64,000 bases of DNA from Podarcis pityusensis (taxonomy: Eukaryota). Below the pieces are notes generated by a model that saw only the letters and a list, made by a program, of their open reading frames with translations, searched no databases and was not told the DNA's origin. The first letter of the stretch is position 1. Every line of letters starts with the position of its first letter. The translations under genes were made by a program, and so were the position numbers. Positions 1 to 50,960 of this stretch are shown one piece after another. The stretch is taken from NCBI GenBank assembly GCA_964106645.2, contig OZ067043.1; one strand, 5' to 3'.

Positions 1-536
1 GTCTCTGAGGGAAATTTCGTGTGCAGCTTGCTCATTATGGGTGAGATGAGATTAGATGAGTAATCTAACTGCACTGTTCTGTAGTTGAAGAAAGGCCATG
101 TTTGACCAGTAGCTCAAAGAAAGATTCTTCTGCATATTGATCAGTTGGGTGACAGTAGCCAGTAAACAGGAAGGAGATGTTTAGATTGAACATGATTACA
201 TTGCTGTGAAGGTAAATATGTCTTTTTAGGTCTGGTTCAGACATAACAGGAAGCCATGGTTTCCTGTTACAAGAACAAGTTGTGGTGAGCTTTATGTACT
301 TTCTCCTCCCAGCTTTTTTGTTTTGTTTTGTGGCAGTAAAGAAATTAGAAGCTTCTGCTTCTAATTTTAAACAAACCACAGTTTCCCATCATGTCTGAAC
401 TTGGAACTGTGGTTTGTATAAAAGTTGGAAGGGAAAGCTGCCAATTTTCTCCTCCTGTGAAAGGAGAGTGAGGAGCACATGAGCCTGAGACTTGTCCTGG
501 TCCATTCATGTAATAACAAAGCATAGTTTCCTATTA

Positions 537-777
537 CAGTAGTACCTCGGTTTACAAACTTAATCCATTCTGGAAGTCCATTCTTAAACCAAAACCGTTC
601 TTAAACCAAGGCACGCTTTCCCTAATGAGGCCTCCCACCGCCTGTGCCCTTCCACCATTCAGATTCCATTCTTAGACCGAGGTAAAGTTCACAAACCGGG
701 ACACTTCTTCCGGTTTTGAGGAGTTCGTAAACCGAATAGTTCGTAAACAGGGCTGTTCTCAAACCGAGGTACCACTG
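537..777. mobile_element. Non-autonomous Tc1/mariner (pogo/Tigger-like) MITE, subfamily A
   Basis: TIRs CAGTAGTACCTCGGTTT ... AAACCGAGGTACCACTG. Left flank TA, right flank TG (degenerate TSD). Closely similar to the copy at 58291-58519. Confidence 0.85.
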
Positions 778-2073
778 TGTATCTTACATCTATGTAGATT
801 AGCAGCAATAGGATGAAATATTATTCCCCTAGGCATGTACCTTGCGAGAGTGACAGGTGCTCTCATTTAGAGTATTGATCACTAGCCAGCCTGTTTATGT
901 GGAAGCACCATAATGACAATTGCAGTGATCTAGACCTTTGTGTTAATTGATTTGCATGAATGAACATTTTCTGTAATCAGCTTTCTTTCCTTTAGCCTCT
1001 GATTCTTACATCTTTGTAAATGTCCCAATGGACCTTAATTAGACAGAAAGGGTAGGTTTTACAATCACTGGGGTGTTTGCAGGTTTTTTCAGAAGTGTTT
1101 CAAATATACACAATTCCACTTAAATGTGTGGTTCCCCAGAACGTAACCCAGAACATTAAAATATCACATGTTGCAAATTGGGTTTCAACAAGGGGCTGCT
1201 GTTTTCAGAGATGTTTCTTGCAACAGGTAGTGCCACCCTTAGCCAGATTCTGTGGTTCGCTAGAAGCACTTAGAACACCCAGAATAATAAACAAATGTTG
1301 GTCCCCTAGAACTGGAAGCTTCTGGGTGTGAACACATAAATAGTACAAATGAGGTTTACTGTCTGCAGTCTTTAAGGTTACCACTTTTCTATGATCCCCC
1401 CCCCCCCATTTTTAAAGGTTTAATTTATCACATAATGATTAGTTACGCTTGACAGGAAGAGGTAGCCTTTACCCAGAGCCTGGCTCTGCTTCCATCTGCT
1501 GCATATTGCATGAGTTGGCTGTACCCCAGTTTTAAGGCTCAAAATCAGCAAATTGTTTCTCAGTTCCCCAGGTTGGTATGAGACCAGAAAGACTCAGGTA
1601 GGCAAAGAACTATAGAAATGTAAGGTTGAATGTTTAATCTAAGTTCTTTCACATCCTGCAGCTGCAATAAAAACGGGTCTGTGTATGTGATATACTTACT
1701 ATACGTGCTTGCTTTATTCTGGCATGCTACTTTGGTGTTATTTTTAATAACAGCCTATGCCAACCTGGTGTTTTGGACTACAACTTCTCCATTCCCCTTA
1801 ACACTGCCTCCCAAAAGATAGTGTTGAGGGGAAGGTGGGATGTGGCATTTAGCTGCAGGAGCCGAAAAAGAAGCAGTCCAGAGTAGAAGTGAGCATTTTG
1901 TGAGCGGCAGAATGCCCATCTCCAAGTATGTGAACATCCACTCAAAGCTCTGCAGGCTTCTAAGTCTTGTGGAACTTTCGCATCTTTGTCAGAGTTGTCT
2001 TTTCTGCCACTGCAGCTTTTTAAAAAAGTGAGTTGATATGAACTGAATGATGCAGAACCTACAGACAGAATAA

Positions 2074-2207
2074 TTGGTGCTTTTTCAGGGGGTACTCAAG
2101 GGAACACAGTACCAGCACCTCTTTTTGTCGTTAAAAAGTGTGGCACTCACTATAACAAATTCATGGTGAGTACCAGCACCTATTTTCCTAAGGGGAAAAA
2201 AGCACTG
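2074..2207. mobile_element. Short DNA-transposon-like element (MITE remnant)
   Basis: Imperfect terminal inverted repeats GTGCTTTTT(C) ... GAAAAAAGCACTG. Internal AGTACCAGCACCT occurs twice. No clear TSD. Confidence 0.5.
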
Positions 2208-2789
2208 AGACAAATTATATCATATTGTGATGTGACTGCAAATGTGCACAGCTCAGGATAAGAGAGGGTTGGCATCTTAATATTGTACCCTTGAGTGCTT
2301 GGAGCAAGAACTGCTTCTGCCTAGATTAATATTTCCACCTAAAAAATCCATGGCAACTATTGACTCATGATAAAGTTTTATCAAGTGCTTGTTGCATGCT
2401 AATGCAAAGGAAGGAGTTCTTTGTTCTAACTGGAAAAAGTATGTATCCTTTTGTGACTCCTTTGTTTTCTGAGCTCAGGGTACCTACAGTCTTTTCCTCC
2501 AAGCCAAATGCATGAAATGGCAGTTATTGAAAGATGAAAAGTATTCATTCTTCTTGGATGCCTTTTAGAAGGGTGCAACAGCTGGTTGTTAGAAGGGTAA
2601 CAATCACAAAGCCCTTGACATCCACATGTTGCCTGGCCCACTGTGTAAAGCAGCACTGGCCAAGTACCTCAGTAACAGCAAGGCAACAAAGGACAAGACC
2701 AGCATCCTGTTGCTACTTCTGTGCTGTAGATCACCACCAAGCCCATGTCAGTGGCCAAAGACTATCACCAATCTTTCCCCTTCCTCAGG

Positions 2790-2841
2790 ATGGAGGGTTT
2801 AGTCACAGTCTGGTGTGTTATGTTTACTCTGATGACTGTAG
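2790..2841 (+). CDS. Mucin-like TM protein, coding exon 1 (signal peptide MEGLVTVWCVMFTLMTV-G)
   Basis: Acceptor ttcctcag|G ATG. Hydrophobic signal-peptide-like stretch. Donor G|gtaaaa, phase 1, matching the next exon. Confidence 0.75.
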
Positions 2842-3629
2842 GTAAAAGCTTAAATTCAAAAGGCATTGGGGGCTGCCTTATAATAGAAGCTATCTCATGC
2901 ACACACCAAACTCCCCAAACATTTTGGCATGCTGCTGAGACTTGGCATGCTGTTTTCCCCATTAGTCATTATCCTGAGCCTGCTGTGTAGGTGTGTTGAG
3001 TTTGGGTGAAGAAGCCAGCCCAGTTGTGCTCCAGCATGAGGGTTCTTTCAGCAATGCAGAGGAACAGCTGCCTCAGCAGAGACCCAAGACTGGAATAAAA
3101 TGAGTAAAGAGTTATTGAGAAGCTGTAATTTTGTGGTTTGTGGGTGGAGAGTGGGAGTCCAGTTTTAACTCCTGCTTTACTGTGTGAGCAAGTAGTGTGG
3201 GACTCCCTCCCATGCCACACTTAACTGTCTTGTTTGCTGTTGATTCTTCAACACTGTATGGGACGTACGAGATCCTTCATTCACACTGAAATGATTCTTC
3301 TGCAGAGATAGCACTGGCTACCAAGCATACTTGGTTCTAATTGTTTTGGGTTGTTCCCCACCACCAGTTAAGTCCCTCCCCTTGATTTTTTTTGTACTTC
3401 TGAAAACTCGGGGGTTCATGGATGGTTGTGCATGGATGGTTCCATTGTGTGTACACCAGGATCAGTACTTAGACTGAGGTCACTATAAATATATATATGA
3501 TTGATTGTTGCAAAAGGACATGAGATTCTCAAATTGACTTGAACTTTGAGATCATGAAAACTTGTTTTTCAGGGGTGTTAGATTTCAACCTTGGCCTACT
3601 GTATTTTTTGTCTTTACTCCTTTTTCATA

Positions 3630-3871
3630 CAGTGGTACCTCTGGTTAAGAACTTAATTTGTTCTGGAGGTCTGTTCTTAACCTGAAACTGTTCTTAAACT
3701 GAGGTACCACTTTAGATAATGGGGACTCCCACTGCCGCTGTGCCGCTGCTGCGCGATTTCTGTTCTTATCCTGAAGCAAAGTTCTTAACCCGAGGTACTA
3801 TTACTGGGTTAGCGGAGTCTGTAACTTGAAGCATCTGTAACCTGAAGTGTCTGTAACCTGAGGTACCACTG
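3630..3871. mobile_element. Tc1/mariner-type MITE, subfamily B
   Basis: TA|CAGTGGTACCTC ... GAGGTACCACTG|TA. Reverse-orientation relative of 17905-18113 and 57675-57917. Confidence 0.9.
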
Positions 3872-4337
3872 TATTTTGCAAGGAAGCACCCTCACAAAAT
3901 GTTTTGGTCTACATAGCTCCATCGTTATCTTTGGAGGTGGGGAAATAGTGCTTCTTCAAATCCTTGACTTCGTAACTCTGCTGATTTCTCTCTCTGATTC
4001 TTTACCCAACAATGATCATCAGTGGCCATAGGTACCTTTCCTACTCCAGTATGAAGCTCCAATACATTGGTTTGTCATACTTTGTATGTTTGAGGAGCAG
4101 AGGATGAGGTTTGGAGAAAATAATTTCCAGTCTGCAGAGAACTGGATGGCTGCAGTGCTACTAGAGGAGGAGGTTAATAGAAGAGGAGTTTCCTCCCCAC
4201 CCTGTAATTGTAATTGATTTGTCCTGTGGGCTCTGTTCCTTCCCTTTCCCTCTTATTTTCCCCTTGCTGGAAGCAGCTGACCTTCTGGGCATGTGTCTGT
4301 GATTTTAGCTTTCCTCTGTTTGTTTTTCCTGCACTAG

Positions 4338-4742
4338 GAGATGGGCAGAATTTATCATCAGCTCAATCTGGCACTGTGTCACACTTCGTGCTCCCTCACA
4401 CGGAGGCTGGCGGCCTTGGCAACTGGACAATTCCCCCTACTGCCATAAGTGTGGATGGCAACACCACCGTTGCTTCACAGTTAAATCTCAGTAGCTCAGT
4501 CCCGCTTGAATCTCTGGCACCTACTGTACACGGCTCCTTAAGCACCACAGCAAGACTACAGAACACAACGCATGTTGCCAACAGTAGTCCTGACATCCAT
4601 TCACTTCCTGCTGCAACTACAAACTTGGTAGAAGTGAACCAGACCCATCTGAATGATTCCGAACCCATCAGTACCACAGCCTGGGTTAATTCCAGTACAA
4701 ATGTTACGGCTACAGAGCCCTCTCAGCCAAAGGACGTACAAG
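4338..4742 (+). CDS. Mucin-like TM protein, coding exon 2 (S/T-rich, N-glycosylated stalk)
   Basis: Polypyrimidine tract plus cactag| acceptor, donor G|gtaaga. Lies within ORF 4214..4756 and carries 10 N-x-S/T sequons. Confidence 0.85.
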
Positions 4743-5339
4743 GTAAGACTTGGTAGTAGTCAACCACTTCCCATGGAATGTAGCTTAATTCTCAAGCAAC
4801 TTGGGTTGTGTACACACAACATTTTGTTCTGCAATCAAAGGAGACTGAATGCTTGCGTTGTTTTTTTCTATATAGTCCTTGCACAATCTAGATCTACTGC
4901 ATATTTTTATTTCCCTGAAAAGTATTTCTTGAGAAACTGGTTTCATTCCAAAAATAAAAGCTCATTGTGGATTGATTCTGCAATACCTCACAGTGTGTCC
5001 ATTTGAAACAAGATGTAGGCAGTCCTGGCAGTGGGGGTTGTATCCATACCTGCCCAATTATGTTATGGGTGTGCATACACCAAGACTGCAATCATTGCTT
5101 CCTTCTTCAATCACCTGGGGCATGTGTGGGGAGGAAAACATATAGATAGCCTAATCAAGGGGAGGGTTTTCACCTACCCCTGTAGATTGAAAGCCACATG
5201 TTGAGGACAAGCATAAATGATTCTCAACAGAGAAACACTACATATCTGTGCTACAAATGGGTTAGTGAGTGCACAGCCTTGGAAAAGTTTTCAATTGACT
5301 TTATTAGGTGGAATACCTCAGAAAGTTTTTTGGCTCTAG

Positions 5340-5407
5340 TTGTTGTTGTTTAGTGGTTTAGCTGTGTCCGACTCTTCGTGACCCCATGGACCAGAGCACG
5401 CCAGGCT
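5340..5407 (-). mobile_element. RTE/BovB-type LINE (or derived SINE) 3' tail fragment
   Basis: Reverse complement reads GGGGTCACGAAGAGTCGGACACAGCTAAACCACTAAACAACAACAA, the typical BovB-like 3' end with a (CAA)n tail. Confidence 0.65.
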
Positions 5408-5528
5408 CTAGTACCTTATCCCATACCTGCCAAAATTGGAGTGGAGAGAATAGAACACAATCTGAGTAGAACTCCCAAGTGCCTGGAATCATAATTAGAT
5501 GTTTCTATAACCTAGGCATAAATATTAC

Positions 5529-6219
5529 TGAGGCAAGGAAGAAGGGCTACCCCTATGCTATCCATATAATCAGTTATCAGTAATCAATATATTCATATAT
5601 GCTTACACATAATCAAGGCTTACAGTATTTTATAATCCATTTTGAATCAAAGGGAAGCTGTGCCTTAGCTAACTGCAAACTGCTTGAAACAGCAAAGTTA
5701 GGAGCCGACCTTTCCCCTACAAACATCCGTGTACCCTGGACAAGGGGAAGACGTGAATCAGAGATACTGGTACAAAAACCCCTCAGATACAGGCTAAATT
5801 AATTCTCAGAACAGAAAGAGCAAAACCACAAAATCTCCAAACTCCCTGTCCTGTCATAACTAGGGGAGAGGTTAGACAGAGCGTCACTGCAAGCATCGGA
5901 AAGCAGAACTAGAACTCCGTGCTTGACAGTGCTTGACCAGGAGCTGGTAGCGTGGCAAGGAGCTTGCTAATTGGCTAATTCTCACTGACAATATCGTGAG
6001 TCCCTCATGGTTGTCTCATGATCTATGATTTGCTGTGATCTGCTCAGGTATAAAGACCTCTGGATTTCTGTCAATCGGGGTCCCAGTTCCTTTTGGAAGA
6101 GATTCCAAACTGGGTCCTTATTGCCTGGCAATAAACTTCACCTTCTTATTCTCCATTGCTGAGTCTGCCTGATCCTTATTTAACACCAAGCGAGTACCTG
6201 CTTACGTTCACGTGCTTCA
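5529..6219 (+). mobile_element. Solo LTR of an ERV/LTR retrotransposon (691 bp)
   Basis: TGAGGCA...TGCTTCA termini (TG..CA, short inverted repeat), 4-bp TSD TTAC on both sides, TATAAA at 6049-6054, AATAAA at 6130-6135. Confidence 0.8.
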
Positions 6220-7079
6220 TTACCTCTTCGATGACAATTATAGTTCTGTTGACACAGGATATTTATTCAATCCCTCATGTAAACTTCAGTACACTTTGAA
6301 AACCTTGCAGTTTTTCATAAAATGGAAGGCAGGTAATTCTGGGTTGTTGTCAAGCGGTAAATGGAGAACAGAAAGTCAGACATCTGGGCAAATGCCTTGC
6401 TCCATATATATAAAAAGTTATGACATAACAAATTGGTATAATTTGGATATGCAGTAAATTAAAATATAAACAAGGAACCACAGAAAGAGGGAGAGAGGAG
6501 TCTAAATAAGTAAATGATTGTCTGCAAAGTAAATTTATATTTATTTTGTATATTGTAAAAGCTTATAAGTGTATTTTTTAAAAAGTTATGGCATTGTAAC
6601 AAAAATAGGGAAAGTTATTTTCACCTTTCTTCAAAGGATGAGAAAATCACAGCAAGATGTGCTGCAGGGTTCTATATGATTAGCAGGAACCATTCCATAC
6701 TGGGAGTCCTGGTGTCCATGAAGGCAGAAGTCTTTCTCTGATTGTTCTTTGACTACTTTTTATTGGTTTTGGTGGCTTCAGGATAAAGAGCAGTTCCTCT
6801 CAGGGAACAATTATTGACAGTGGGAGAAGGGGAAAGCTCTGTGTCTGATGTGTCAGAAACAAATGATGCAAAACACATATTGACATAGGCATTGATCTGT
6901 AGGCACCTATCTCTGATGTGTTTGGGCAGGCAATTGATTGTTGATGCTGTAACGCTCCAAGAGATTCCTCTATGCACCATGCAGTGGGGCTTGCCTTTGA
7001 ACTTCCTTTTCCTGTAGAGGGTACACTATGCTAATTCACCTTCCCCCACCCCCTTGGGCCACATGATAAAAGAAGAGCT

Positions 7080-7212
7080 AGGCTGTGTACACGCCATATA
7101 TTTAAAGCACATCCCCACCACCCAAGAATCCTGTGAACTGCACTTTGTTGAGGGTGCTGGGAATTGTAGCTCTGTGGGGGCAAACTACAGCTCCCATGAT
7201 TCTCTGAGGGGG
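7080..7212. mobile_element. Palindromic MITE remnant
   Basis: Inverted arms TGGGAATTGTAG (7158-7169) and ACTACAGCTCCCA (7184-7196). Similar to other short palindromic repeats in the window. Confidence 0.5.
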
Positions 7213-7702
7213 GATGATCTCTGACCCCTGGCTTGTCTGATAGAATTGAAGTATGCTTGGAACTAAAGATTTGGTTTCTAGGATTTCAGTCAGAACCCTC
7301 TTCTAATTATTTTGTGTAGATCAGTTAGGACTCACTTTAGCTGTCTCAATTTGCACCCTAAGATTTCCAGGCTCTACAGCTTGAAAACCCAGATTTTGCC
7401 AACTGACTAACCTAAGAACAGATATTTTCTGCACAACATGTCTCAGAAAGCTTGCTATTGTAAGACAAACTATGGCAAAGGGCTATGTGTATCCACTAGT
7501 GTGTTTCAGCCATTGATGTAAATCTCTTTGCAAGCTTGGTATACTTTGTTCTGGACTCTGGATCTGCTCCATCCATGTCCTAGAATTGTAGTAATAGAGA
7601 GGAAATGATCATGCTGGATTATTTTCATTTATTCTTGCACATCAAAGACCCAGGATCCTCGCTTGATTCACTTGTGGGTGTCTCTCTTGTCTCTTTCTCC
7701 AG

Positions 7703-8017
7703 GGCCGACATCTCCTTCCCAGCCAAAAGCTTCCACACTCATCACCTCGGGGCCTACAGAAGGGAGACCAGAAACTATGTCGGTGGCAAACCGTAATGCT
7801 ATCACAGAGGGGAGCAGTGCTGAGTCCACTTTCGCTCCAAATGCAACTGATACGGATGGAAGAGTGCTCACAGCGAGTGCCTCTAGCACTACCATATTAA
7901 CACCAGGCATTGTCTCCTCCACACTCACTTCTCCCAGAGTCCCACCAGTGGAAACAGAGCAACCAGCTAACCACGTGCAGAAGAAGGCCTCTACCACAGA
8001 CGTAGGAGATGGCGAAG
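7703..8017 (+). CDS. Mucin-like TM protein, coding exon 3 (S/T/P-rich stalk)
   Basis: Acceptor ctctttctccag|, donor GAA G|gtactc. Lies in ORF 7663..8070; phase 1 to 1. Confidence 0.8.
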
Positions 8018-8233
8018 GTACTCACTTGGAGCTCTTATTCCATGCGGGTAGAAACAAGGATAGAGAGTAGTTTGGGAACTAGATATATAGTGGAGATGAA
8101 GGTATATAAAAATGTTTTTGCGACAGAACAAGTTTTGACTTTTGAAGTGCCTAGTAGTTGTATGGAATTGCCATTCTGGGCCGGGAGCGATAATCCATGT
8201 TTGGCTGTCTGACTTTCCCCCCCCTTCCTGCAG

Positions 8234-8400
8234 ACCTACCTAGTATACCAGAAGCCAGCCCAATAGGTGAGGACCCTCTGGTGATTGCAGTCATCTTCAT
8301 CTTCATTGTGACAGTGGGGATCCTGGCTCTTATGGGGTTCTTGCGGTACCGACAGCGCAGTGGCCAGCTGCAGTTCCGGCGGCTCCAGGATTTGCCTATG
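8234..8400 (+). CDS. Mucin-like TM protein, coding exon 4 (TM helix LVIAVIFIFIVTVGILALMGFL plus basic stop-transfer RYRQR)
   Basis: Acceptor ttcctgcag|, donor ATG|gtttgt. A 22-residue hydrophobic segment is followed by basic residues. Confidence 0.9.
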
Positions 8401-8499
8401 GTTTGTGCCCTTGATTAATCCTCCTCGGTTAGACCTCTAACCTGGACTTCACAGGCTCTTATTAGAAGATAGGAAGCTAACCAATGATCTGATTTGGCA

Positions 8500-8642
8500 G
8501 AAGGCAGTCTAGCTCAACCCTAACTGGCAGTGGCTTTCCAGGGTTTCAGACTTTGGTCTCTCCCAGCCCAACAGGAGGTGGCAGGGATTGAACATGAGGT
8601 CTTCTGCATTCAAAGCAGATGTCCTACCATGGAGTTATGGCC
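8500..8642 (-). mobile_element. tRNA-derived SINE fragment
   Basis: Reverse-oriented B-box-like GGGATTGAAC and SINE body. Similar degenerate copy near 47190-47340. Confidence 0.5.
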
Positions 8643-9190
8643 ATTTTCCTTCCTCTGCCTTGAGTGCTCTGCTCTGAAACTAAGGTTTTTTTAAAATATA
8701 CTTTTCAAATATCATGATCAGAATGCATTTGAAAAGGATATAGGCTCCATAGTGTTCGTCAACCCTAACTAGGGTAGCATTCAAGTGTAACCTTTTGTGA
8801 AGGATTCAATTGGAGTTGGGAGGAAAACATCTCTAGTGTCTTCTACTCCATCCTTAAGGGTGATAATTGGATGAAGGACCTCCAGACCACATGGAGGTAC
8901 CATTTTTGGGGGGGGGGCTAGAAAATGGCACCATAGATTCCCCCCCACAGTAAGAGTGACAAAGGTTAGGACCCCCCCCCCCAATTTAAGTTGAATGAGC
9001 TCTCCAGCTGTGGGCCTTCACATTAGGGCATCTCACCTGGAGCATGGCCTAGATGCCAGTACACAATAAATCTTATCCGTCTGCCTCTCCTGAGGCTTCC
9101 CATCTCTTTCAAATACGTCAGTAGTCTGATAACAGCAAGAAGGTTACTTCAGGGTGTCTGTGGAATGGGGCAAGTCATAGAGTGCATATT

Positions 9191-9532
9191 TGTATACCTG
9201 AAGGAGCGTCTCCACCCCCATCGTTCAGCCCAGACACAGAGATCCAGCTCTGAGGGCCTTCTAGTGGTTCCCTCATAGCGTGAAGTGAGGTTGCAGGGAA
9301 CCAGGAAGAGGGTCTTCTCAGTAGTGGCGCCCGCCATGTGGAATGCCCTCCCTTCAGATGTCAAGGAAATAAATAACTCTTTGACTCTTAGAAGACTTCA
9401 GGGAAGTTTTTAATGTTTGATGTTTTATTGTGTTTTTAATATTTTGTTGGGAGCTGACCAGAGTGGCTGGGGCAACCCAGTCGGATGGGCAACATATAAA
9501 TAAAATTACTGCTAGTGCTACTACTACTACTT
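9191..9532 (+). mobile_element. L2-type LINE 3' end fragment
   Basis: ORF2-end motif ...GTGGCGCCCGCCATGTGGAATGCCCTCCC..., then 3' UTR CCAGAGTGGCTGGGGCAACCCAGTCGGATGGG and an A-rich/(TAC)n tail. Confidence 0.65.
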
Positions 9533-9649
9533 GAGGCATGGGCAGAGGGCCTGTGTGCACTGCTTGCTTTTATGCCCTTCACCTACTCCTGCTCCTTCAA
9601 GCCTGTGCAAAATTAACAAGGTCTCCCTTTCCCCCCTTTTTGCTTACAG

Positions 9650-9694
9650 GATGACATGATGGAAGACACACCTCTTTCCCTCTACAGTTACTAA
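9650..9694 (+). CDS. Mucin-like TM protein, last coding exon (DDMMEDTPLSLYSY*)
   Basis: Strong acceptor ccccctttttgcttacag|GAT, phase 0 matching exon 4, TAA at 9692-9694. Confidence 0.8.
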   Translation, partial: DDMMEDTPLSLYSY

Positions 9695-11188
9695 GCAGTT
9701 GGAAGACAATTTTCCTATTGTGATTCTGATCAGCCAAGGGAGGCATAAAGGCTTCTGACCGGGAAGAGCATCCTCTGCAAGATGCTGTCCTGATTTCCCA
9801 TGACTATAAAGTTGTGAGTCAGCTGACTTAGTCTACAAAGAGACTTGTTTTTTCTTTCTTTTTTGGGAATTGGCACCAGCCTGACCTAGTCCTTTCCCTT
9901 GTACCTTTGTGCTCCTTGTGCCTTGTGTCCAGAGCCATACAGCTCTCGGGGAAATGGACTTTCGTTCAGTGACCGCACTAACTCTTGTTCACATTGCCAA
10001 GGGAGGCCTTGCTTGGATTTTGAAGAGCTGCACTGTGGGATTCTTGCACAAGAAGTGAAGCAGCCGTGGGGGCGAGTCAGCCCAGCGCAAAACCGCGGAG
10101 TATGTTACATGTGAAAGGCGATGCAACCCAACTGTGATTTGGAGGGCTAGTTGGCTCCTTCCTTGAGTTTTACATATATACTTTTAAATTGCACTTCTAT
10201 TTACACTTTTTATCAATCGGATCCAAAGGTGTTCCAGAGGGTCTAGCAGGAAAACAAGGAGCAGTGACCCCATATTTGCTATAAGAGCCCTGATCCACCA
10301 GACCAAAAACCATTCAGCCCATCATTCTGCTTCCCATATTGATCAGTCACAAGCCTCCAGGAACCTTGCAAACAGGGTTTGAAGACATTAACCCTGACCC
10401 AAAGTTGTTCCCTAGCAAATGATCTTCAAAGATATTGCATAGCCTTATTGCGGAAGCCTTACTGCATAGCCTTACTGCGGAAGATGTGCTCCGGCCCTCC
10501 AATTATTGCTGTATTTCAGCAGGAATAAAAGCAGTTTTGATTCAGACAACACTGTTTGGGGGAAGCAGTTTATTTCTGGAGTTTCTCCAGAAAATTCTGC
10601 CACTGTTCGTGGTACCAAGGTGTGGCACAGGAGATGCCCAGCAATTATACCAGCCCAGTTGTGCCCAGACGCTTGTCCAACAACAGCTCAGATCAATGGG
10701 ACACATATGTGTACTCAGTGCTGCCACTGGAAGCTGTATCTAACTGTTGTATCGCTTGCTTGTTTGTTAGATTCATATTTAAATAGTCCTGGCAACCGTC
10801 TTTGTGTGGACTCTTGGCAGTTACCTCCTGCTGTTTGCACAGAGCGTTCATTCCCCACCTTGTCCTCTCCTGTTACTTCTTTACCCGCTAATCCTAGAGG
10901 AATTGCTTGTGCCTTGTTTGGATGAAGAAATCTAGAACCAAAGATGGGGCAGACCAATTAAGATGCAGTGTCCCTTTTATGTCTGCATAGGAGTGTACCT
11001 TTTATTTCTTCATTTAAAATTCTCTTTATTCCACCCTGTATCCTCTTTTCTCCAGCTGTTTTCTGTTTCTCCCGTTCTGTTTCCCCTCACTTCCTCCACC
11101 TGACATCTCTCATTTACATCTTTAGCCTTCTGAAGGCTTTTCCAGAACATAACACCTTTGTGTTTGGACTGTTGATTGTGGGTCTACA

Positions 11189-11194
11189 AATAAA
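11189..11194 (+). terminator. Candidate poly(A) signal of the mucin-like gene
   Basis: AATAAA followed by a T-rich downstream element. An alternative AATAAA lies at 10524-10529. Confidence 0.5.
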
Positions 11195-11961
11195 TTGGTT
11201 TTCCTCTAAATAGGCTTATTTCCTTTCTTGCTTGAAGCTTCTCAAGTTGTTAGTTGGATGAGATAGGAGCCTTTGCTCGGGTTTTCTGCAACACCCCCAA
11301 TTTGCATCCCAGCAAACTGGAGGAATTATGTTGCTGCTTCCCCTTCACATGCCTGTATAAAATAAGGAACAGCATAGATTATTCAAAGAAGAGCTAGAGA
11401 GAGCACGCCAGGAACAAAGAAAAAGCTCTAAAGGTTACTCTTTAAATCCTTACACACACCATCTGATTTGTAAAAGGGAATTTTTATTCAGTGGGCAATC
11501 ATGCAGGGGAATCTCACTGTGGCTAAAGGGACTAGTTCTAAGAACTTGGGTTTTTCTTGATCCATCATTCCAAGATAGGGGTACCCCAAACATTTATCTA
11601 GTTAGGAAAGCTACCTCTGATGGACGTTTGAGAACCTCCACAGTTAAAACGCAGGGTGTCACACCCTTGGGCTTTTCAAAGGCCTGCAGAAAGTTGAGTA
11701 TTCCATGTGATGCCCCTAAGAAAGAGGTTGCTCAAATGCTCCCCCTGAAGTCTGCAGAACTGCTCTAGAAGTGAGTAGGACTTGTAGCCACAACTGATGG
11801 ACTAATGCAGATAAAACCCCAACAAGCCTGAAAGATGTTGATAGTGTGATTCAGGTTTGTTTTGTTTGAAGTCTGTGCTACTGAGATTAATAGGGCTCAC
11901 TCTAATGTGTGTCAAGGACTGCAGCCCTGCTTGCTAGATAACTGCTAGGCAGGAAGCACAT

Positions 11962-12050
11962 TCATAGAATTGTAGAGTTGGAAGGGACCCCAAGGGTCAT
12001 CTAGCCCAACCCCCTGCAATGCAGGAATCTCAGCTAAAACATCTATGACA
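11962..12050 (-). mobile_element. CR1 LINE 3' end fragment
   Basis: TCATAGAATTGTAGAGTTGGAAGGGACCCCAAGGGTCATCTAG is the reverse complement of the CR1 3' terminus. Confidence 0.75.
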
Positions 12051-17904: not shown

Positions 17905-18113
17905 CAGTGGTACCTCAGGTTACATACGTTTCAGGTTACAGACTCCGCTAACCCAGAAATAGTACCTCGGGTTAAGAACTTTGCTTCAGGATGAGAACAG
18001 AAATCGTGTTCTGGCGGCGCAGCAGCAGTGGGAGGCCCCATTAGCTAAAGTGGTGCTTCAGGTTAAGAATGGACATTCGGAACGAATTAAGTACTTAACC
18101 CGAGGTACCACTG
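17905..18113. mobile_element. Tc1/mariner-type MITE, subfamily B (internally deleted)
   Basis: TA|CAGTGGTACCTCAGGTTA ... TAACCCGAGGTACCACTG|TA. Confidence 0.9.
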
Positions 18114-18633
18114 TATTTGGCTCATCCCCTAGGCATGAGCTTGGATGTACAAAATCTTCTGGCAAAAGAAGACTCTACAGAGGGAAACAGCTCTAGTAAA
18201 GATCCTTGAAAACACTTTGAGGGCACCAGAACAGAACACAGTAGAAATGTAGCAGCTTCCTTCAGAAAGACTGAGTCACTAGGATTAGGGTAGAGAAAAA
18301 GCAAAATGCAAAGAGGTTTAAAGAGAATCTGTACACAAGAATCTTAAGCATCTTAATGAAATAGGGTAAGAATTCCCCTGACGAGAATGTTAATCCCTTT
18401 ATTCTCAAAACTGAGGGTTCCTCTATGTGGTGCAATATGGCTTTTGATATTTCAGAAACAGAAGAAAAGTAAACACAGCAAGTAGTATTTTCAGTATCAA
18501 TCCGTTCCTCTTCCAGGGTATTCTGGCAATGCTGCAATTCAAAATAAAAACTTGTAGAGATAAACTTCACAGTCCCAGAGCAATCACTAGGTAATGGTTT
18601 CAGTAAATATTTCAGAGTTACACCCAGGCTCAC

Positions 18634-18765
18634 CAGCAAGTTGTGCAATCTCTGGTTCACTAAAGAGTTCATCTGAGCTGACATCTGTGAGACTGAACTC
18701 AGAGGCTGAATCGTCACTGAGAAGGGATGACAAGGTAGCATCATGCAGCAAAACTCTCTTTTTTC
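18634..18765 (-). CDS. CCDC163: CCDC163-like coding exon 10 (RKKRVLL...acidic Ser-rich)
   Basis: Acceptor gtctcctag|, donor G|gtgagc. Lies in ORF 18587..18883. Confidence 0.8.
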
Positions 18766-19567
18766 CTAGGAGACAAAGTTCAAGGCAGATTAGGGAGACT
18801 AGCAGCTCACTTAAAATTCTGAGCTTTTTCTCAAAGCAATGTTTACAACTTAGTAAATGATTGAGTTTGCCCTTACTGTCCAAAGTCCCAATGATTCAAG
18901 ACAAGACCATGTATGCAATGCCAGTATACTTTTTTCTAATTAAGAGCTTTATTATTTCCATTTAAAATATGGCTGGCACCTGGGTTTATATGTGGAAAGT
19001 GTCATGCATACATAGGGCAGGATTCACCTTACTAGTCCTGTTAGTGGAAGCCTATGCAAGGGAGCTTATCTTTTCCCCTAGCACTCCTGAAATTGGTTTC
19101 AGCAGCGTTGGGAGAAGCCCCAGGTCAGGGCATGGGGGAAGGAGAGAGAGGGAATTGTTCCACCTGGTAAGCTGACATAGTGTGACACTGAATTCTTTCC
19201 AAAATTAGTAAAACTGAGAAAAGTGAACTGCTTCTCTGACCATGTATATTTTTTACAGGAGCAGAATATTTCACAGCTGAAGATGAGAGTCTAATGGGTT
19301 GTGCTGAAGAAACACTGGTACAATGAGGGCCATTTTACACAATGTTATATTTTCCTTCAAAAAGTTAATATATCCATAGCAAAAAGCAAATACTCTTTCA
19401 AGCATCTGAGTGCTTATTTTGCAACAAGACTGACAAATGGATGTGCAGCAGCTGCCCAGTCCACAAACTTGCAGCAAAATGAGCCCTCATGCCACACTTC
19501 CCATGTGCACCCATTTTCCTAATCAGAAATGCTCTCAGTGTCAGGTGTTCTAAGAACAAGCACTTAC

Positions 19568-19662
19568 TTAGACGGAGGTTTTTGTCTCTTAGTGGACCAG
19601 CGTAGAGTTCATCCTCCAAGTGCAGACCTTTCACCTGTTCTTTTAGGTCAGTAACTGTACTT
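19568..19662 (-). CDS. CCDC163: CCDC163-like coding exon 9 (STVTDLKEQVKGL...)
   Basis: Acceptor ttttaatcag|, donor A|gtaagt. Lies in ORF 19398..19691. Confidence 0.8.
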
Positions 19663-21669
19663 CTGATTAAAACAAATTCAAAAGCCCACATAAATTATTA
19701 GTGCAGATGGAAGAAACATATTTATAAGAGATGAGGCACTCTTGCACCTCATAAATCTGAGCGATGCAGTCAAGTAAGCTCATAACAGCTCTGTGCGATT
19801 CACTTAATGTCCGAAAGTATCTGTAGGCAGTGAAATAATCAAGCCTTCAGTTAAAATGGAAATGCTTGATGAGCTAATGAAAAGCAAGCCATGACTGACT
19901 TCAGTGACAGAGCAGCTAAGTTTATTTCAATGATATATTCAATGGCTTCTCTGGTGTTGCTTACTTAGAATCATTCATAGATTTGGGAGGAATACAGGGA
20001 AATAAGAGGAACTAGAGAGAAAAGAGTTTGATCCTCTGAATTCAAACCACTATAATGTGACTCAGTCACTACAGGTTCTGTGAACCTGGGTGATAATTGC
20101 TGGAGAATGTTCTTTCATTTCCAAGAGATGAATACTAGGAAATGGACATGTACTGTGCCACTCAGTACATCCCCTCTTATTAGATCCAAGCAGTTCCTGG
20201 ATGAGATTATCAATGTCTACTAAGTCTGTGTAGGCTATGCACTACCTCCAGTCCCAGATCACATGCAGAAAAGTGCTATTGAACTCATGTCCTATACTTG
20301 TGGATTTCCCATAGCCATCTGATTGATAGGGCTGGGGAAGAAATTCAATTCACTTTGCATTCAAAGGCAACCTTATCTAATTCAGATTTTCCAAAAAAAA
20401 ATATGAGAACTGAAATCCAACCATCTTTCCCAATTTGTGCTCCTCCAATTTTTGCAATGCAGTTCCCCAGGCCAGTAATGTGTACAAAAATGCACATACT
20501 AAGGTAAAGTGTGCATACAAATGCATATGTTATGGAAAATAACATACAAAAATGTTTATATTATGCAACATTGCATATAAAATGTACATATTACTTAATA
20601 AAATCACACTAACACTCTGATTAATTTTCATGAGGTTTTTTTTTGGGGGGGGAGATGAAAACTGATGTAGAAATGTGAAGAACTGAACTTAAGTATGGAA
20701 AAACAGGAAACTGAAATTGACATCTCTGTCCATCCCTACTGGCTGATCACTGCAAAAACAGAATGCTGGACCAGTCAGACCTCTAATCTGAACCAGCAGG
20801 GCTCTTAGGTTCTTACAGTTCAAGGCAAAAGCTATAAAATGCAGCAAGGCAAAAAAGCAAATACTTAATCTCAATGAAAGGGGACAGAAACAGGAAGTAG
20901 TGGACAGAGGTAGCTGATGTTTGAAGTGGCATGTTTGTGAGCTCTCTTGATAGAAACCCCTCTCTAAACAGCACCAAGTGTATCATCAAATTCACTGGGC
21001 TCGTTCCCAAGTTAACTTAAGGAAGTTCACAGAAGGAAAGTTTCCTGCCTTCTCCAGCCACCTGTGCTCCCTGAAAAGTCAGTCTGGGAGGTCAGGAGCC
21101 CTCTTGAGCAATGTGGGATGGGTGAATCACCCCAAACCAGGATTGATCTCAATGGGCTCAATGTAAAGTTAACAGAAGGAACACTTCCCTTTCTCTTTTC
21201 CCCAGCAGTCCCATTTCACATTGCTCATGAAGAACTGACCCTACACAGAAGTTGTTTGGGCCTGGGCTGGGGTGTCAAGTGGCTATAGGGAGAAGGGGAT
21301 GGGAAACATCCAAACCATTGGGTGACTAGGGCAGCCTTCTTCAACCTGCTACCATCCTGTCTGGTCAGGAATTAGTCCAAACCCTCTGGAAGGCCCCAGA
21401 TTAGGGAAGTCTGGTTTGGGAAGAAAGCAAACTGCTAGCCTTCTGCAGCACCTTCAAAGATTCCTGTCTCATCATTGCCTTTTTGGAGGCTAATGCAATG
21501 AATAGGAGGCCCTCTGGTGGACAACTGTCTACTAGCAACCATCTACAACACCATTTTTGAATAAGAGAAACAGTGGTAATAATTTAGCAACCATGCACGT
21601 CTCAATCCTGCATTGAACCACGGGCAGCTATCAAGTGAAGCACATACAGCATAACATGTGTTTCCCTAC

Positions 21670-21770
21670 TTGACATGACTAAGTTCCTTCTGAGTGCTCT
21701 GGGTCTCAATCCTAGCTTTGTCCAAATCCTTAGTCTGAGCTTTATGACTGTCCTTCAGATCTTCCAGCAT
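21670..21770 (-). CDS. CCDC163: CCDC163-like coding exon 8 (MLEDLKDSHKAQ...)
   Basis: Acceptor ttattcccag|, donor AA|gtaggg. Heptad-like sequence. Confidence 0.75.
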
Positions 21771-23179
21771 CTGGGAATAAGAAGACAGATAACTATGGTT
21801 TTAACCTAAGCTTTTAGGGTTAATTTTGTTTTTAAAAGAAATTCCCCCCACAAAAAAAACATAAGCAGGGAGTTAAGAGTGTTTTGGGTATTTGCTTGTT
21901 TTTTAGTTTTTAAGTATATCCATAGTTTCCCAGTCATGTATTCTGCTGCAGAGATTAGCATATACCCACAGACAGAAGCAGAATGGCAAACACATGTGAC
22001 CATATTCCTAATACCACTGCACTGGTTTTTCCAGGCTAGGGAAGCACAGCACAGTGGTATAATGGCCTTAAGAGGTGCCCACAAGTTTCCACAATGTTTG
22101 GAAGCAGTACTAAGTCATTAACTATGTTTTAAGTGAATTAGGCTGTGAACAAGCTAAGCATCTGTGTATACAGCTGTAACCCTCCCACTTGACTCCTCCC
22201 TCCATGAACAAAACAAACAATGAAATCATTTTGCATTCAAACCAGCACTTCTGGTTTGTCTCCAAATAAAACCTCACAATTTGAAGCCAAGGTTAAATCA
22301 TTACTTCCCAATGGTGGTTTGTTTGCTCTAAGCCCACACTCTATTTTAATGTGAAAGCTGGAAAGGCAGGACATACATCAAGACTGATGGTGGTGGCTAC
22401 AGTTCAGGAATCTTTCCATAGCTTAAGAAACCATCATTAGGGAAGGAAGAGTATTTAAACAAGTGGCATCAAAGGTGAATGACTACTTCTTGAACTGAAT
22501 ATTTGCTCGAGCAGCAGGTGGGGCAAATCTTGGCCAACCAGGCTATTTTCCACAAACCATGCCCACCAGTCAACCTGCTGACAAATCCAAGTGGCACCAG
22601 CTGATTGTCAGGTGGGCAGGGTTCAATTCTGCCTTGGCTGCGCAAACAGGTACCTGCAACCCTTTACTTCTCAGCTGATAAGCAAAGCTTAACTCCTTCT
22701 CATGTTGGCTGTATGAGCAGGCACCACAGTCAAGGCAAGCCAAAAGGAAGGTGCTTTTTATGAGCAGTGAAAGAAAGGAAGAGTTTTCACAAGCCAAGGC
22801 AGAGTGCATGAGGGAAAAGGCCTTTGCTTGCAAAATGGCCCTTTCTTCATTTCCTCCTGGACGCAAGGATTTTCGCAAGTGGGCAGGACACTCACCTGTC
22901 AATCATGTAACATGTCATAGAATTGACGGGTAGGTTGTTGACCTGCGAGGAGGTGCCAGATAAAGCAAAAAAAGGTTCCTCATCCCTGTGCCAGAGTCAT
23001 CTAGCTTGTAGGTATAGTGTAATCTTGTTCTAATCTTTCAGTCATCTCTGTCTTGTCTGTCCAATATATTTTAGATATCTGGGGTAGGGACTGCATCCGC
23101 CCTTCATGTTCCATGCTGGGCCTAGGACTACTAGCACAAAGTGATTGGGTAGCAGCAGGGAACCTTTTTAACAACGTAC

Positions 23180-23256
23180 CTGACAGTATCTTCTTTGAGT
23201 CTTCTTTATCTCATCAGTTGCAGACACTTGGTGGAACAGATCATCCTCTTGTTGAT
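23180..23256 (-). CDS. CCDC163: CCDC163-like coding exon 7 (DQQEDDLFHQVSATDEIKKTQRRYCQ)
   Basis: Acceptor ccctttag|, donor CAG|gtacgt. Confidence 0.8.
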
Positions 23257-23401
23257 CTAAAGGGTGCAATAAGCCATGTCATTTTCTCAATTCTGTACAT
23301 ATTTCTCTCTTCCCAATGAGGCCCACAGGGCACATAGCCTTTATCCCAATAGTTATTACAGGACAGAGGCCAGGGGAGGAGGAGCATCAAGTAGTACTTG
23401 C

Positions 23402-23469
23402 CTAGTTTGTGCTTCAGGTGTTCCATCTCTCTTTTGATGCACTTATATTCTTGCCACAAGATTTTCTTA
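23402..23469 (-). CDS. CCDC163: CCDC163-like coding exon 6 (SKKILWQEYKCIKREMEHLKHKL)
   Basis: Acceptor cttattctag|, non-canonical donor TAG|gcaagt. Confidence 0.8.
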
Positions 23470-24004
23470 CTAGAATAAGAAGGAAATCACGAACTGAATT
23501 AAGACAACAGGGATCACTTTTCTGGATTTACTGCAAAGTCCATTCCAAATTCAGCTGTTTTAAAACATTAACAGTTTTGAAATTTATGGAATTGGCCCCA
23601 TGCCATTCTGATTCCCAGAGAAATGGTAAGATAGAGCTCAAGCATGCTTGCATTGTTGGCTTTCTATAGGCTAGAAATCAGTGAAAAATATATTGCTAAC
23701 CTACAGGGGTCCACTCAGGTAACACAATTCACTACAAGCAAGTGGTTATTAGAACAGCAACTGTTATTCTTCCCAGCACAGCAGCAACCCCATTCAAGAA
23801 AACTTGGCAGAGGCCACAGTTCATTCAAGTCTTTGAAGACATTCTCAAATTGCAAATGACATGCCAACTTTCTTCCAGCAATTAATGATCTGCAGTTGAC
23901 ACTTGGAAAAGTACTGTTCTTTGTCCATCACCACACTATCCCACTCATCTCGAACATCCCTATACATAAAGCAGTTACTTTCACTAGATAGCTCAATTGC
24001 TGAC

Positions 24005-24185
24005 CTCTCCCGCATATCTTGCATGATGCCAGGGTTGGAAAAAGGATCAGGAGTACAGTCACCATCTGACTGCTGAAACACTTGCTGCCGAAGGCTACGG
24101 AACTCAGTCTTCAGCCCTTCCATCCTGACTCCCAGCACTGAGTCTAAGCTGCCGTGAGAATTGTGCTGCAGTCGATCCACCTCCT
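24005..24185 (-). CDS. CCDC163: CCDC163-like coding exon 5 (EEVDRLQHN...MQDMRE)
   Basis: Acceptor atgttgcag|, donor AG|gtcagc. Lies in the frame of ORF 23845..24180. Confidence 0.8.
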
Positions 24186-24965
24186 CTGCAACATGAAGCA
24201 GGACAGGACGAAATTAGCCAACAGTATTCCCCTTGGCTGTTGTGGAGATACAGTGACATTGATGCCCATTCACCATTGGTGCACGGCAGTCTGTTAACCA
24301 CATTCAAGAGAGGTTTGTCCCCATCAGAATACCATGGAGCTGGCAAGAGTGCTGACAGACATAAATGAAGTGTGGATTCAAGTATGAGGAAGGAGGGAGG
24401 TGAAGTGGCTGGATTCTTAGGTACCATGACATATTTCTCATAACAGGGTTATCAGCTAAGCAAGAGAAGAATCTTCCAACAGTTTCATTGGGTTTTTGTT
24501 CATTTCTGGGTCCAATTAAAAAATGCTAATTATTATCACTCACTAAAATCTGCTGGAGGGACTCTCCTTCATGTCTCAGTGATGAATTATGTTAGGCTGG
24601 ACTGCAGCACAAACCCACTCTGCAGTTGCACCAGCTATGGGGAACTTTTTTTATGTCCACCCTGCTCCATCCCATTAGCTTCTAAAGATGACTCTTTTGG
24701 GAGTTGTTGATGTTTGAAACCTCCTGAACTGAGGCATTTTCTGTGCATGCACGCTCTCTCCCATATTGTGCTTTTACCTTGTATATTTCTCAAACTGTAA
24801 TTGTAAGCTGCTTTGAACATTTTAATACAAAAAGCAAAAATAGAAAAATACACATTTTAAGTAAAATAAATAAAACTTGTGCTCTTTTAGGTGCAACTTG
24901 TTTGAACACATCAGAGAAAGGGCAGTCTGGCAGAGGCAATGCCAAACTGGACAAATCTCTTATAC

Positions 24966-25047
24966 CCTCTAGGTGACTGATACTCTGCTGCTGCAGTTCC
25001 TTCTCCTGTTTCAGCCGATGTACTGCCTGGGTGAGGGATTCTATGAC
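24966..25047 (-). CDS. CCDC163: CCDC163-like coding exon 4 (VIESLTQAVHRLKQEKELQQQSISHLE)
   Basis: Acceptor ttctttctcttag|, donor G|gtataa. Coiled-coil-like sequence. Confidence 0.8.
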
Positions 25048-25527
25048 CTAAGAGAAAGAAAGGAGGACCAGAGTCATGGGAACAGCAAATGCCATCATAA
25101 GCAAGAAGCCCTCAAAATCTTAGGCTGGAACATAATATACTAGAAAAACTAATCCTAACCAAATTGTTGGTTTGAGAACGTGTATTATTTCCTGTTACAT
25201 GATTTACCGTAAATCTCACATTTCCTCCAAGGAGCAGGGGTTGGAATTCATGGAATTCCCCACTACTCTAACTCCACGACAATCTAGTGATGCAGACTAA
25301 ATTGAGGCACAATGGCCGGCCAAGGTCTCACAGCGAGTTTTATGCCTGAACAGCAATTTACAACCCAGATCTGTCTGCTTTAAATTCAACCATCTACTGT
25401 ATGGCACTATCTTCTCATGTGCAAGACTTTGCATGTGGTTTTGCTGGTGTATGCACCCAGATGTATTAGCAAAGCTTTTCTCTACACCATAGCATAGTAG
25501 CTTGCACATCATTTCAGTGTCACTTAC

Positions 25528-25688
25528 CTGGGCTTGGGAATGCAATTGCTTGCTGATGGCAGAAAGCTCCTCAGCAGCCATTCTACAGCATGAGTGAGCT
25601 CCACATGTGAAATGCAGGGGTGGTGGTCCAGTCTGTTGCTCAGTCAGAGCAGCACTCTCAGTATTTATTCTGTCTAGCAAGAGATCAG
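25528..25688 (-). CDS. CCDC163: CCDC163-like coding exon 3 (ADLLLDR...SKQLHSQAQ)
   Basis: Acceptor cccaacag|, donor CAG|gtaagt. Lies in ORF 25297..25725. Confidence 0.75.
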
Positions 25689-27739: not shown

Positions 27740-28149
27740 GCTGTTAGCAAAAAGATGTTTTAACAACTCACTGGTTGCCCAACTGTAACCCGGGAAGAGT
27801 CCTTGGCTAGAAAGAAATCCCAGCAGGAGAGAAGAGCGCCTGCAAAAGCAGCAGGAGACGGTTTATTTTTCTCCCGTGAGCAACGCTGAATCTCGTCATA
27901 GCAAAGGAGGGGTGGGGTGGGGAAGGTACAGACTTGGAAATGCAGACACTTTTGCAGAAAGACTGCCTAACAAGTTTCCTTCAAGTCACACACAAAAATG
28001 CCTCTTAAGGGAATGCAGCATCAGACACCCAACGTCTCTGGGACAGATTCACAAGCACCTTTTAACTACTGTGCCAACAGTTTAAAGAGCACAGCTCTAA
28101 AGCACAACGCTCTGGAGGCCCATAAACTCTTTCAACGATAGACCACGGC

Positions 28150-28960: not shown

Positions 28961-29008
28961 ATCCGAGATCACTTGGAGAAGCTGGGCTTTGAAATCCACC
29001 CGCTTAAG
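28925..29008 (+). CDS. MMACHC: MMACHC exon 1 ((M)MELRVVELEKRIRDHLEKLGFEIHPLK)
   Basis: Tandem ATGs at 28925 and 28928, donor AAG|gtactg. Confidence 0.92.

Positions 29009-49349: not shown

Positions 49350-50960
<1,611 letters not shown>

What the first reader, a model, noticed from the sequence alone, without database searches (positions are those of the whole stretch)
2790..9694. Complete orphan sialomucin-like type I membrane protein
Seen: five exons splice in frame to 327 aa, with a signal peptide, a Cys-free S/T/P-rich stalk carrying 11 N-glycosylation sequons, one TM helix and a 33-aa tail RYRQRSGQLQFRRLQDLPMDDMMEDTPLSLYSY. Knowledge: this is the general architecture of sialomucins such as CD43, TGN38, PARM1 and TMEM123, but I cannot match the tail to any named gene. 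As I recall, the human CCDC163 3' neighbour is TESK2, not a mucin. Inference: this may be an uncharacterised vertebrate surface or trafficking glycoprotein that mammals lost or relocated.
Basis: partly seen in the sequence, partly recalled or inferred. Interest (0 to 1): 0.7.

Follow-up and report, generated by a model that had tools for sequence, protein, structure and literature searches.

The report
Ancient vertebrate mucin missing from mammals
This is a real, spliced lizard gene for an unstudied membrane protein predicted to be sugar-coated, found from sharks to birds, whose last 23 amino acids are almost unchanged and likely act as a docking or sorting signal; it seems to have been lost in mammals.

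Summary
Exons 2-5 (4338-4742, 7703-8017, 8234-8400, 9650-9694) are joined at GT..AG in 4 of 4 RNA-like runs. The true exon 1 lies 7.5 kb upstream of the window. The corrected protein has 337 aa, 11 sequons, no Cys after the signal peptide, one TM helix and a 33-aa tail. Unnamed relatives occur in chimaera, sharks, ray, ray-finned fishes (zebrafish LOC100002633; second teleost copy si:ch73-344o19.1), coelacanth, lungfish, amphibians, reptiles and birds. Stalks are only 26-42% identical to the lizard's; the last 23 residues are 19-23 of 23 identical. No named hit is a mammal, and human TESK2 and CCDC163P leave no room for the gene, so loss in mammals is likely, not proven. It has no Pfam family, and five paper searches found nothing on it. 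It is not PARM1, TGOLN2 or C5orf15, which lie on other contigs. Most likely it is a sialomucin whose tail binds a trafficking adaptor (F-x-R-L, acidic cluster, terminal Y-x-Y), but the canonical YxxPhi, DxxLL and dileucine motifs are absent. The mechanism is inferred, not tested.

The parts
1..4337 (+). Window part of intron 1. The true coding exon 1 (82 nt, most of the predicted signal peptide) lies outside the window, at G000:C6:51576417-51576498 (L007:2417-2498), in a CpG island about 7.5 kb upstream.
   Evidence: Own-genome hit to P0003 residues 2-34, E 6.7e-11. Loose ends before exon 2 in 4 of 4 runs match that exon's 3' end. GC 0.57, CpG o/e 0.77 there.
2790..2841 (+). At most a minor or cryptic exon inside intron 1.
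   Evidence: No joint 2841/4338 among listed joints (54 joints not shown). Exon 2 is preceded by the upstream exon in 4 of 4 runs. No similarity to relatives' N-termini.
4338..4742 (+). Exon 2 (405 nt): end of the predicted signal peptide and the N-terminal half of the S/T/P-rich stalk, with 10 of the 11 sequons
   Evidence: pLDDT <50 over residues 27-268 of P0003
7703..8017 (+). Exon 3 (315 nt): second half of the stalk. Ends in a conserved juxtamembrane motif x-L/T-D/N-V/I-G-D (window 7990-8010).
   Evidence: Joints 4740/7701 and 8015/8232, GT..AG, in 4 of 4 runs. Motif in 266 of 356 relatives vs 5 of 1805 control windows (pattern chosen after seeing the alignments).
8234..8400 (+). Exon 4 (167 nt): D-P-L cap, TM helix (about 8278-8343), basic stop-transfer residues, F-R-R-L (8374-8385)
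   Evidence: helix 282-310 of P0003 at pLDDT 85-95; 0-1 other letters in 168 in the four runs vs 7-17 in exon 2
9650..9694 (+). Exon 5 coding part (45 nt): acidic D-D-M-M-E-D stretch, terminal Y-S-Y, stop
   Evidence: Joint 8399/9649, GT..AG, in 4 of 4 runs; column conservation
9695..11204 (+). 3' UTR (inferred). AATAAA at 11189-11194; one run has a lower-depth contig continuing past 12000.
   Evidence: Contig pieces 9649-9936, 9801-10936, 9978-11204 and 10936-12000; sequence

Best explanation
This is a spliced, single-copy lizard gene of an unnamed jawed-vertebrate family that encodes a predicted type I sialomucin, and its nearly invariant 23-residue tail likely binds a membrane-trafficking adaptor that cycles the protein between the cell surface, endosomes and Golgi, as the tails of PARM1 and TGN38 do. 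Step 1 (inferred from composition): the signal peptide takes it into the ER, and the disordered Cys-free stalk is O- and N-glycosylated into a brush whose sequence matters little. Step 2 (predicted): one 22-residue helix, capped by D-P-L and basic residues, anchors it. Step 3 (conservation shown, function inferred): F-x-R-L, 10 residues after the first basic residue, would be a Phe variant of the YxxPhi signal read by mu-adaptins; the acidic D-D-Phi-Phi-E-D cluster and terminal Y-x-Y would add a second contact (mu1 basic patch or a PDZ/FERM-type partner). Step 4 (inferred): the gene was lost on the mammalian stem from between TESK2 and CCDC163.
For: Splicing and exon 1. Single copy: only this locus matches P0003 in G000 (4 matches E<=6.7e-11; next E 3.0 is its own exon 5, then 3.8). 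Architecture. In 264 full-length relatives the median length is 332, median S/T/P fraction 0.44, median 6 sequons, and 241 of 264 have no Cys in the stalk. Range: (218 clusters at E<=1e-3). Against 13 relatives the lizard stalk is 26-42% identical, the TM 24-76%, the tail 19-23 of 23. In 366 collected tails F is present in 366, R+2 in 364, L+3 in 366, terminal Y in 359 (L was required by the picking pattern, which allowed F, Y, W or H first). F sits 10 residues from the first basic residue in 355 of 356. ESM Atlas nearest named clusters are PARM1 (0.95, 200 of 256 features). In PARM1, mutating YGRL moves it to the plasma membrane (PMC3750824, passages, citing its ref 17). mu4 binds a Phe-based motif and mu1 binds acidic clusters (PMC6627992, passages). 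Mammals: none among named rows; human TESK2 and CCDC163P/MMACHC promoter probes are 8.6 kb apart (PMC9020039, passages), against a 17.3-kb coding span here.
Against: The canonical signals are absent: YxxPhi 0 of 366, DxxLL 0 of 366, [DE]xxxL[LI] 0 of 366. The first position is never Tyr, although Tyr is the residue the mu2 pocket prefers (recalled). Conservation spans all 23 residues, more than a 4-residue endocytic signal needs. The Atlas warns that the PARM1 family call is probably wrong (5 of 10 best hits share it), and the TM+tail alone scored under 0.9 (syndecan, endomucin, glycophorin). The family's tail resembles the lizard C5orf15 and PARM1 tails only in the first four residues (with those fixed, 5569 and 8731 of 20000 shuffles score as high). 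No localisation, tissue or binding data exist. Mammalian absence rests on lists cut at 120 of 136, 120 of 197 and 150 of 218 rows, and no mammalian genome was searched.
Confidence: 0.5

Rival explanations
1. A stably surface-resident anti-adhesive or spacer sialomucin, like CD43, podocalyxin or endomucin, whose tail is anchored to the cortex by a PDZ- or FERM-domain scaffold that reads the basic juxtamembrane stretch and the terminal Y-x-Y.
For: Aromatic residue at -2 in 362 of 366 tails and Tyr at 0 in 359 of 366, a Phi-x-Phi ending like class II PDZ ligands (recalled). Basic cluster after the TM. The TM+tail's nearest Atlas clusters are syndecan, endomucin and glycophorin C (0.82-0.86, leads only). 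The TM has 22 residues.
Against: Terminal Tyr is an unusual PDZ ending (recalled). It does not explain the invariant F-x-R-L-Q-D block. No Pfam match to these families (15 proteins).
Confidence: 0.25
2. An accessory subunit or chaperone of another membrane protein, held through its TM (D-P-L cap, Phe at +9 and +21) and the extracellular x-L-D/N-V-G-D motif, with the tail steering the complex.
For: P is 352 of 352 (picked by that pattern), Phe+9 349 of 352 and Phe+21 331 of 352 in an otherwise variable TM. A juxtamembrane motif is kept in 266 of 356 stalks vs 5 of 1805 control windows.
Against: TM identity between lizard and zebrafish is only 8 of 34. The motif is not evident in the four cartilaginous-fish sequences seen. 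No partner is known.
Confidence: 0.13
3. A signalling mucin, like MUC1 or CD43: shed at the conserved juxtamembrane motif, with the tail phosphorylated on its two terminal tyrosines or released inside the cell.
For: Two conserved terminal Tyr. A conserved membrane-proximal motif could be a cleavage site. PARM1 over-expression raises ERK, AKT and STAT3 phosphorylation (PMC3750824, passages).
Against: The terminal Tyr have no downstream residues for an SH2, ITIM or ITAM consensus (YxxPhi 0 of 366). No SEA or other cleavage domain.
Confidence: 0.12

Closest known systems
PARM1 (Pfam PF17061)
   Same: Signal peptide, Cys-poor mucin stalk, one TM, short tail with aromatic-x-R-L near the membrane. 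Nearest named Atlas clusters (0.95). UniProt's automatic name for the crocodile member P0111.
   Different: Lizard PARM1 is on another contig (C13). No PF17061 match. PARM1 has Tyr (YGRL) and NPxY, and its last intron falls right after the TM, whereas here it falls 19 residues into the tail.
TGOLN2/TGN38 and C5orf15/KCT2 (Pfam PF17818)
   Same: Low-complexity stalk, one TM, Y-x-R-L signal. The lizard C5orf15 tail is also 23 residues from the aromatic residue to the end and ends aromatic-x-aromatic.
   Different: PF17818 loci lie on C12 and C15 (names C5orf15 and TGOLN2 assigned from recall). No PF17818 match. Likeness beyond the first four residues is at chance level. Intron right after the TM.
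CD43, CD164, TMEM123, endomucin, MUC15, podocalyxin (sialomucins)
   Same: General architecture; MUC15 and endomucin clusters score 0.85-0.86 in the Atlas (leads only).
   Different: No Pfam match to any of them among 15 members scanned at E<=10. Tail unrelated; no Cys-rich or SEA domain.
Teleost si:ch73-344o19.1, zebrafish LOC100002633, Xenopus XB5735880, chicken XP_015146763 ('mucin-17'), Podarcis LOC114599084
   Same: Members of this very family; tails 19-23 of 23 identical.
   Different: Placeholder or automatic names only; no paper in the library mentions them. Orthology beyond sequence (synteny in those genomes, a tree) was not tested.

Membership tests
Type I sialomucin (architectural class) | N-terminal signal peptide | tested here: inconclusive
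   Hydrophobic core (KD 2.35 over 11 residues), helix 14-25 in the model, small residues before a conserved G-Q. No SignalP available.
Type I sialomucin (architectural class) | S/T/P-rich, Cys-free, unfolded ectodomain with glycosylation sites | tested here: met
   S/T/P 0.39, 11 sequons; pLDDT <50; no Cys in 241 of 264 relatives
Type I sialomucin (architectural class) | Single TM helix and short cytoplasmic tail | tested here: met
   One hydrophobic run; helix 282-310 at pLDDT 85-95; 33-aa tail
Type I sialomucin (architectural class) | Dense sialylated O-glycosylation and surface exposure | not testable with these tools
   Needs glycoproteomics and localisation
PARM1 family | Match to PF17061 | tested here: not met
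   0 of 15 members at E<=10; the genome's PARM1 is on C13
PARM1 family | YGRL and NPxY in the tail; intron just after the TM | tested here: not met
   F-x-R-L, no YxxPhi in 366 tails; last intron 19 residues into the tail
TGN38/C5orf15 (KCT2) | Match to PF17818 and Y-x-R-L tail | tested here: not met
   0 of 15 members; PF17818 loci on C12 and C15; shuffle test at chance beyond four residues
ARMH4 (PF15767) | Match to PF15767 | tested here: not met
   0 of 15 members; the only own-genome match is on C1, E 4.8e-5
Cargo with canonical clathrin-adaptor signals | YxxPhi, [DE]xxxL[LI] or DxxLL in the tail | tested here: not met
   0, 0 and 0 of 366 tails
Cargo with canonical clathrin-adaptor signals | Tail binds mu or sigma adaptins and drives internalisation | not testable with these tools
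   No adaptor sequence was at hand for a complex prediction; bench assay needed
Genes lost in mammals | Absent from monotreme, marsupial and placental genomes | tested here: inconclusive
   No mammal among named rows; lists truncated; human interval 8.6 kb; no mammalian genome searched

The most novel reading that the evidence does not exclude
The 23-residue tail is an undescribed kind of linear sorting or scaffolding signal, kept almost letter for letter since the shark-bony fish split and read as a whole by one partner. The gene defines an unrecognised jawed-vertebrate family, kept in two copies in teleosts and deleted on the mammalian stem, so it marks a cell-surface function that mammals gave up or rewired.
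Probability: 0.3. Interest if true: 0.7.

Novelty: new member of a known kind. Interest (0 to 1): 0.45.

Why it matters
A tail almost unchanged from sharks to birds means a strong, specific constraint, yet the gene has no name, no Pfam family and no paper found, probably because human and mouse lack it. It is testable at once in zebrafish, Xenopus and chicken. Its partner could reveal a non-canonical (Phe-based) sorting signal, and it adds a candidate to the genes lost at the origin of mammals. Automatic names such as mucin-2, mucin-17, mucin-5AC or PARM1 hide that these are one family.

Tried and rejected
Identity with PARM1, TGOLN2, C5orf15 or ARMH4: rejected, since each has its own locus elsewhere in G000, and the family's tail profile finds none of those loci (best E 0.15 at Z=2000). 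Register likeness to the C5orf15 tail: 199 of 20000 shuffles overall but 5569 of 20000 once the first four residues are fixed, so not counted as homology. Integrin-ligand idea (L-D-V in the juxtamembrane motif): present in only 109 of 356 and absent in the lizard, so rejected. Glycosaminoglycan sites: 18 of 356, not a family trait. PDB: nothing better than E 0.27 for the family profile. Pfam: no family reaches its cut-off. The look-up of sequencing runs: no holder on record as RNA; the spliced contigs come from runs guessed to be RNA. Paper searches with no relevant result: tail motif 0, five accessions or LOC ids 0, ch73-344o19/XB5735880 0, gene-loss terms 0 and 6 unrelated listings. Supplements of PMC5901865 (a gecko paper on the fates of duplicated genes): 0 hits, files 13-19 of 19 not searched, and they may list the gene by an Ensembl id I do not have. 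Earlier scan findings: none by sequence or place; three unrelated by words. No complex prediction, no tree, and no synteny check outside this genome and human were made. The TESK2, CCDC163 and ZSWIM names for neighbours rest on recall and position; only MMACHC was confirmed by Pfam. The kinase exon had a weak PF07714 hit (E 0.042) and no PDB hit.
Full report
Observation. Contigs from four runs of four studies, guessed by the tool to be RNA, skip the three downstream introns at GT..AG in 4 of 4 runs. Exon 4 differs from them at 0-1 of 168 letters and exon 2 at 7-17 of 284-405, as expected under purifying selection on the TM/tail exon.

Correction of exon 1. Annotated lacertid relatives begin with a different signal peptide. 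A search of the own genome with P0003 found it at G000:C6:51576408-51576506, about 7.5 kb before the window. ATG is at 51576417 and the donor after 51576498, in a CpG island. In 4 of 4 runs laid on 3890-4800, the contig entering exon 2 carries that exon's 3' end. The corrected protein has 337 aa and 11 sequons, with Cys only at 16-17, and is 335 of 337 identical to P0147. As a 53-nt cassette from 2789 it would put a stop in frame (read from the sequence). Three of four runs show no depth there and one shows a little. It is at most a minor exon.

Anatomy. AlphaFold2 on 18 relatives gives a weak helix at 14-25, no confident structure over 27-268, a confident helix at 282-310 and an unstructured tail (mean pLDDT 44). 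In 264 full-length relatives the median length is 332, the S/T/P fraction 0.44, and 241 have no Cys in the stalk. No Pfam family reaches its cut-off (3 and 15 proteins), and no solved structure matches.

Family. Relatives were found in squamates, turtles, crocodilians, birds, frogs, salamanders, a caecilian, lungfish, coelacanth, sturgeon, gar, bowfin and many teleosts. A profile search without a word index found 218 clusters at E<=1e-3. Look-ups of 20 of the 93 newly listed ids named a chimaera, two shark clusters and a ray, Xenopus XB5735880 and teleost si:ch73-344o19.1; two had no name. The other 73 I judged only by sequence as frog-, bird/reptile- or fish-like. Zebrafish LOC100002633 and chicken XP_015146763 are members. 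Several teleosts have two diverged copies (for example P0236 and P0321, P0372 and P0382, P0264 and P0327), which suggests retention after the teleost genome duplication; no tree was built. All names are automatic or placeholders, and no paper in the library holds the ids or the tail motif.

Tail. Against 13 relatives the lizard stalk is 26-42% identical in aligned columns and the TM 8-26 of 32-34, but the last 23 residues are 19-23 of 23 identical, including 21 of 23 in chimaera, catshark and ray. Among 366 collected tails (many are close relatives or isoforms) the first residue is F in all, R+2 in 364, L+3 in all (required by the picking pattern), and the last residue Y in 359. YxxPhi, DxxLL and [DE]xxxL[LI] occur in none. 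A second conserved element, x-L-D/N-V/I-G-D some 15-25 residues outside the membrane, is found in 266 of 356 stalks against 5 of 1805 control windows, with the pattern chosen after seeing the data.

Neighbourhood and mammals. Upstream on the minus strand lie kinase exons, which I recognise from recall as TESK2. Downstream lie minus-strand coiled-coil exons at 18-26 kb (CCDC163 by position and recall; no Pfam), a CpG island at 28 kb, MMACHC exons at 33018-33251 and 35054-35206 (PF16690, E 1.5e-24 and 3.2e-22) and a ZSWIM-like exon at 50.1 kb (recall). In human, TESK2 neighbours CCDC163P, and probes at the TESK2 and CCDC163P/MMACHC promoters are at 45,957,053 and 45,965,625 (GRCh37; PMC9020039, passages). 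That 8.6 kb is too short for a gene whose coding span here is 17.3 kb. No named row (49 of 49 listed; 120 of 136; 120 of 197), 22, 50 or 73 is a mammal. A mammalian copy with the conserved tail should have ranked among them. The unlisted rows, and 68 of the 218, were not seen, and no mammalian genome could be searched. Loss is likely (about 0.8, my estimate), not shown.

Mechanism. Shown: splicing, architecture by composition and model, tail conservation. Inferred: glycosylation, location and partner. A variable brush with a frozen short tail is the pattern of cycling mucins. PARM1, the nearest named Atlas cluster (0.95, with the Atlas's own warning that the family call is probably wrong), sits in Golgi and endosomes and moves to the surface when YGRL is mutated (PMC3750824, passages). 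TGN38 uses YQRL to bind mu2 (PMC3655264 and PMC4022726, passages). mu4 reads a Phe-based motif and mu1 reads acidic clusters (PMC6627992, passages). I therefore favour an adaptor-bound, cycling protein (0.5). Against this, F is never replaced by Y and the whole tail is frozen, which suggests one partner reading a longer, non-canonical signal. Rivals are a PDZ/FERM-anchored surface mucin (0.25), an accessory subunit of another membrane protein (0.13) and a shed, signalling mucin (0.12).

Known families. The lizard's own PF17818 loci (C12, C15), PARM1 (C13) and a PF15767 match (C1) lie elsewhere. Their last introns follow the TM directly where checked, and tail likeness does not go beyond aromatic-x-R-L. 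It works like PARM1 or TGN38 at best; it is not a member of either family.

Verdict. It is already auto-annotated in many genomes but unrecognised as a family and unstudied in the library searched. It is a new member of a known architectural kind, notable for its near-invariant tail and probable loss in mammals. Interest 0.45.

Noticed in passing
window 2789-2841 (+): Good acceptor and fair donor flank a 53-nt stretch that would shift the frame to a stop if included between true exon 1 and exon 2; a possible cryptic or poison cassette. One run of four has low depth around it.
   Followed up: partly
window about 18600-25700 (-): Exon-like coiled-coil stretches (for example 25528-25686, 24064-24183, 23180-23254, 21672-21770, 19569-19661, 18635-18715), probably a CCDC163 orthologue; no Pfam match. 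The human gene is written CCDC163P in PMC9020039.
   Followed up: partly
window 28001-29000 and 33018-35206 (+): CpG island, likely the shared CCDC163/MMACHC promoter, followed by MMACHC exons.
   Followed up: partly
window 50108-50824 (+): GC-rich first coding exon resembling ZSWIM5/ZSWIM6 (recall) follows MMACHC here, whereas human has PRDX1 next to MMACHC (PMC9020039); this suggests a local rearrangement.
   Followed up: no
L009:60-299, L013:1581-6111 (-): TESK-type kinase exons 22 kb and more upstream of exon 1, head to head with this gene; separate CpG islands near G000:C6:51563001-51565000 and 51576001.
   Followed up: partly
window 530-780, 3620-3875, 5340-5410, 9190-9450, 11960-12000, 17920-18110: Interspersed repeats with very high contig depth in the RNA-like runs; 17920-18110 judged by eye.
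   Followed up: no
P0149 (cluster of P0004): An annotated 279-aa lacertid isoform ends just before the TM, which would be a secreted form; not tested in reads.
   Followed up: no
P0328, P0333, P0350, P0361: Cartilaginous-fish members carry H-E for Q-D and one extra acidic residue in the tail, the main systematic length variant seen besides a one-residue deletion in some sequences.
   Followed up: partly
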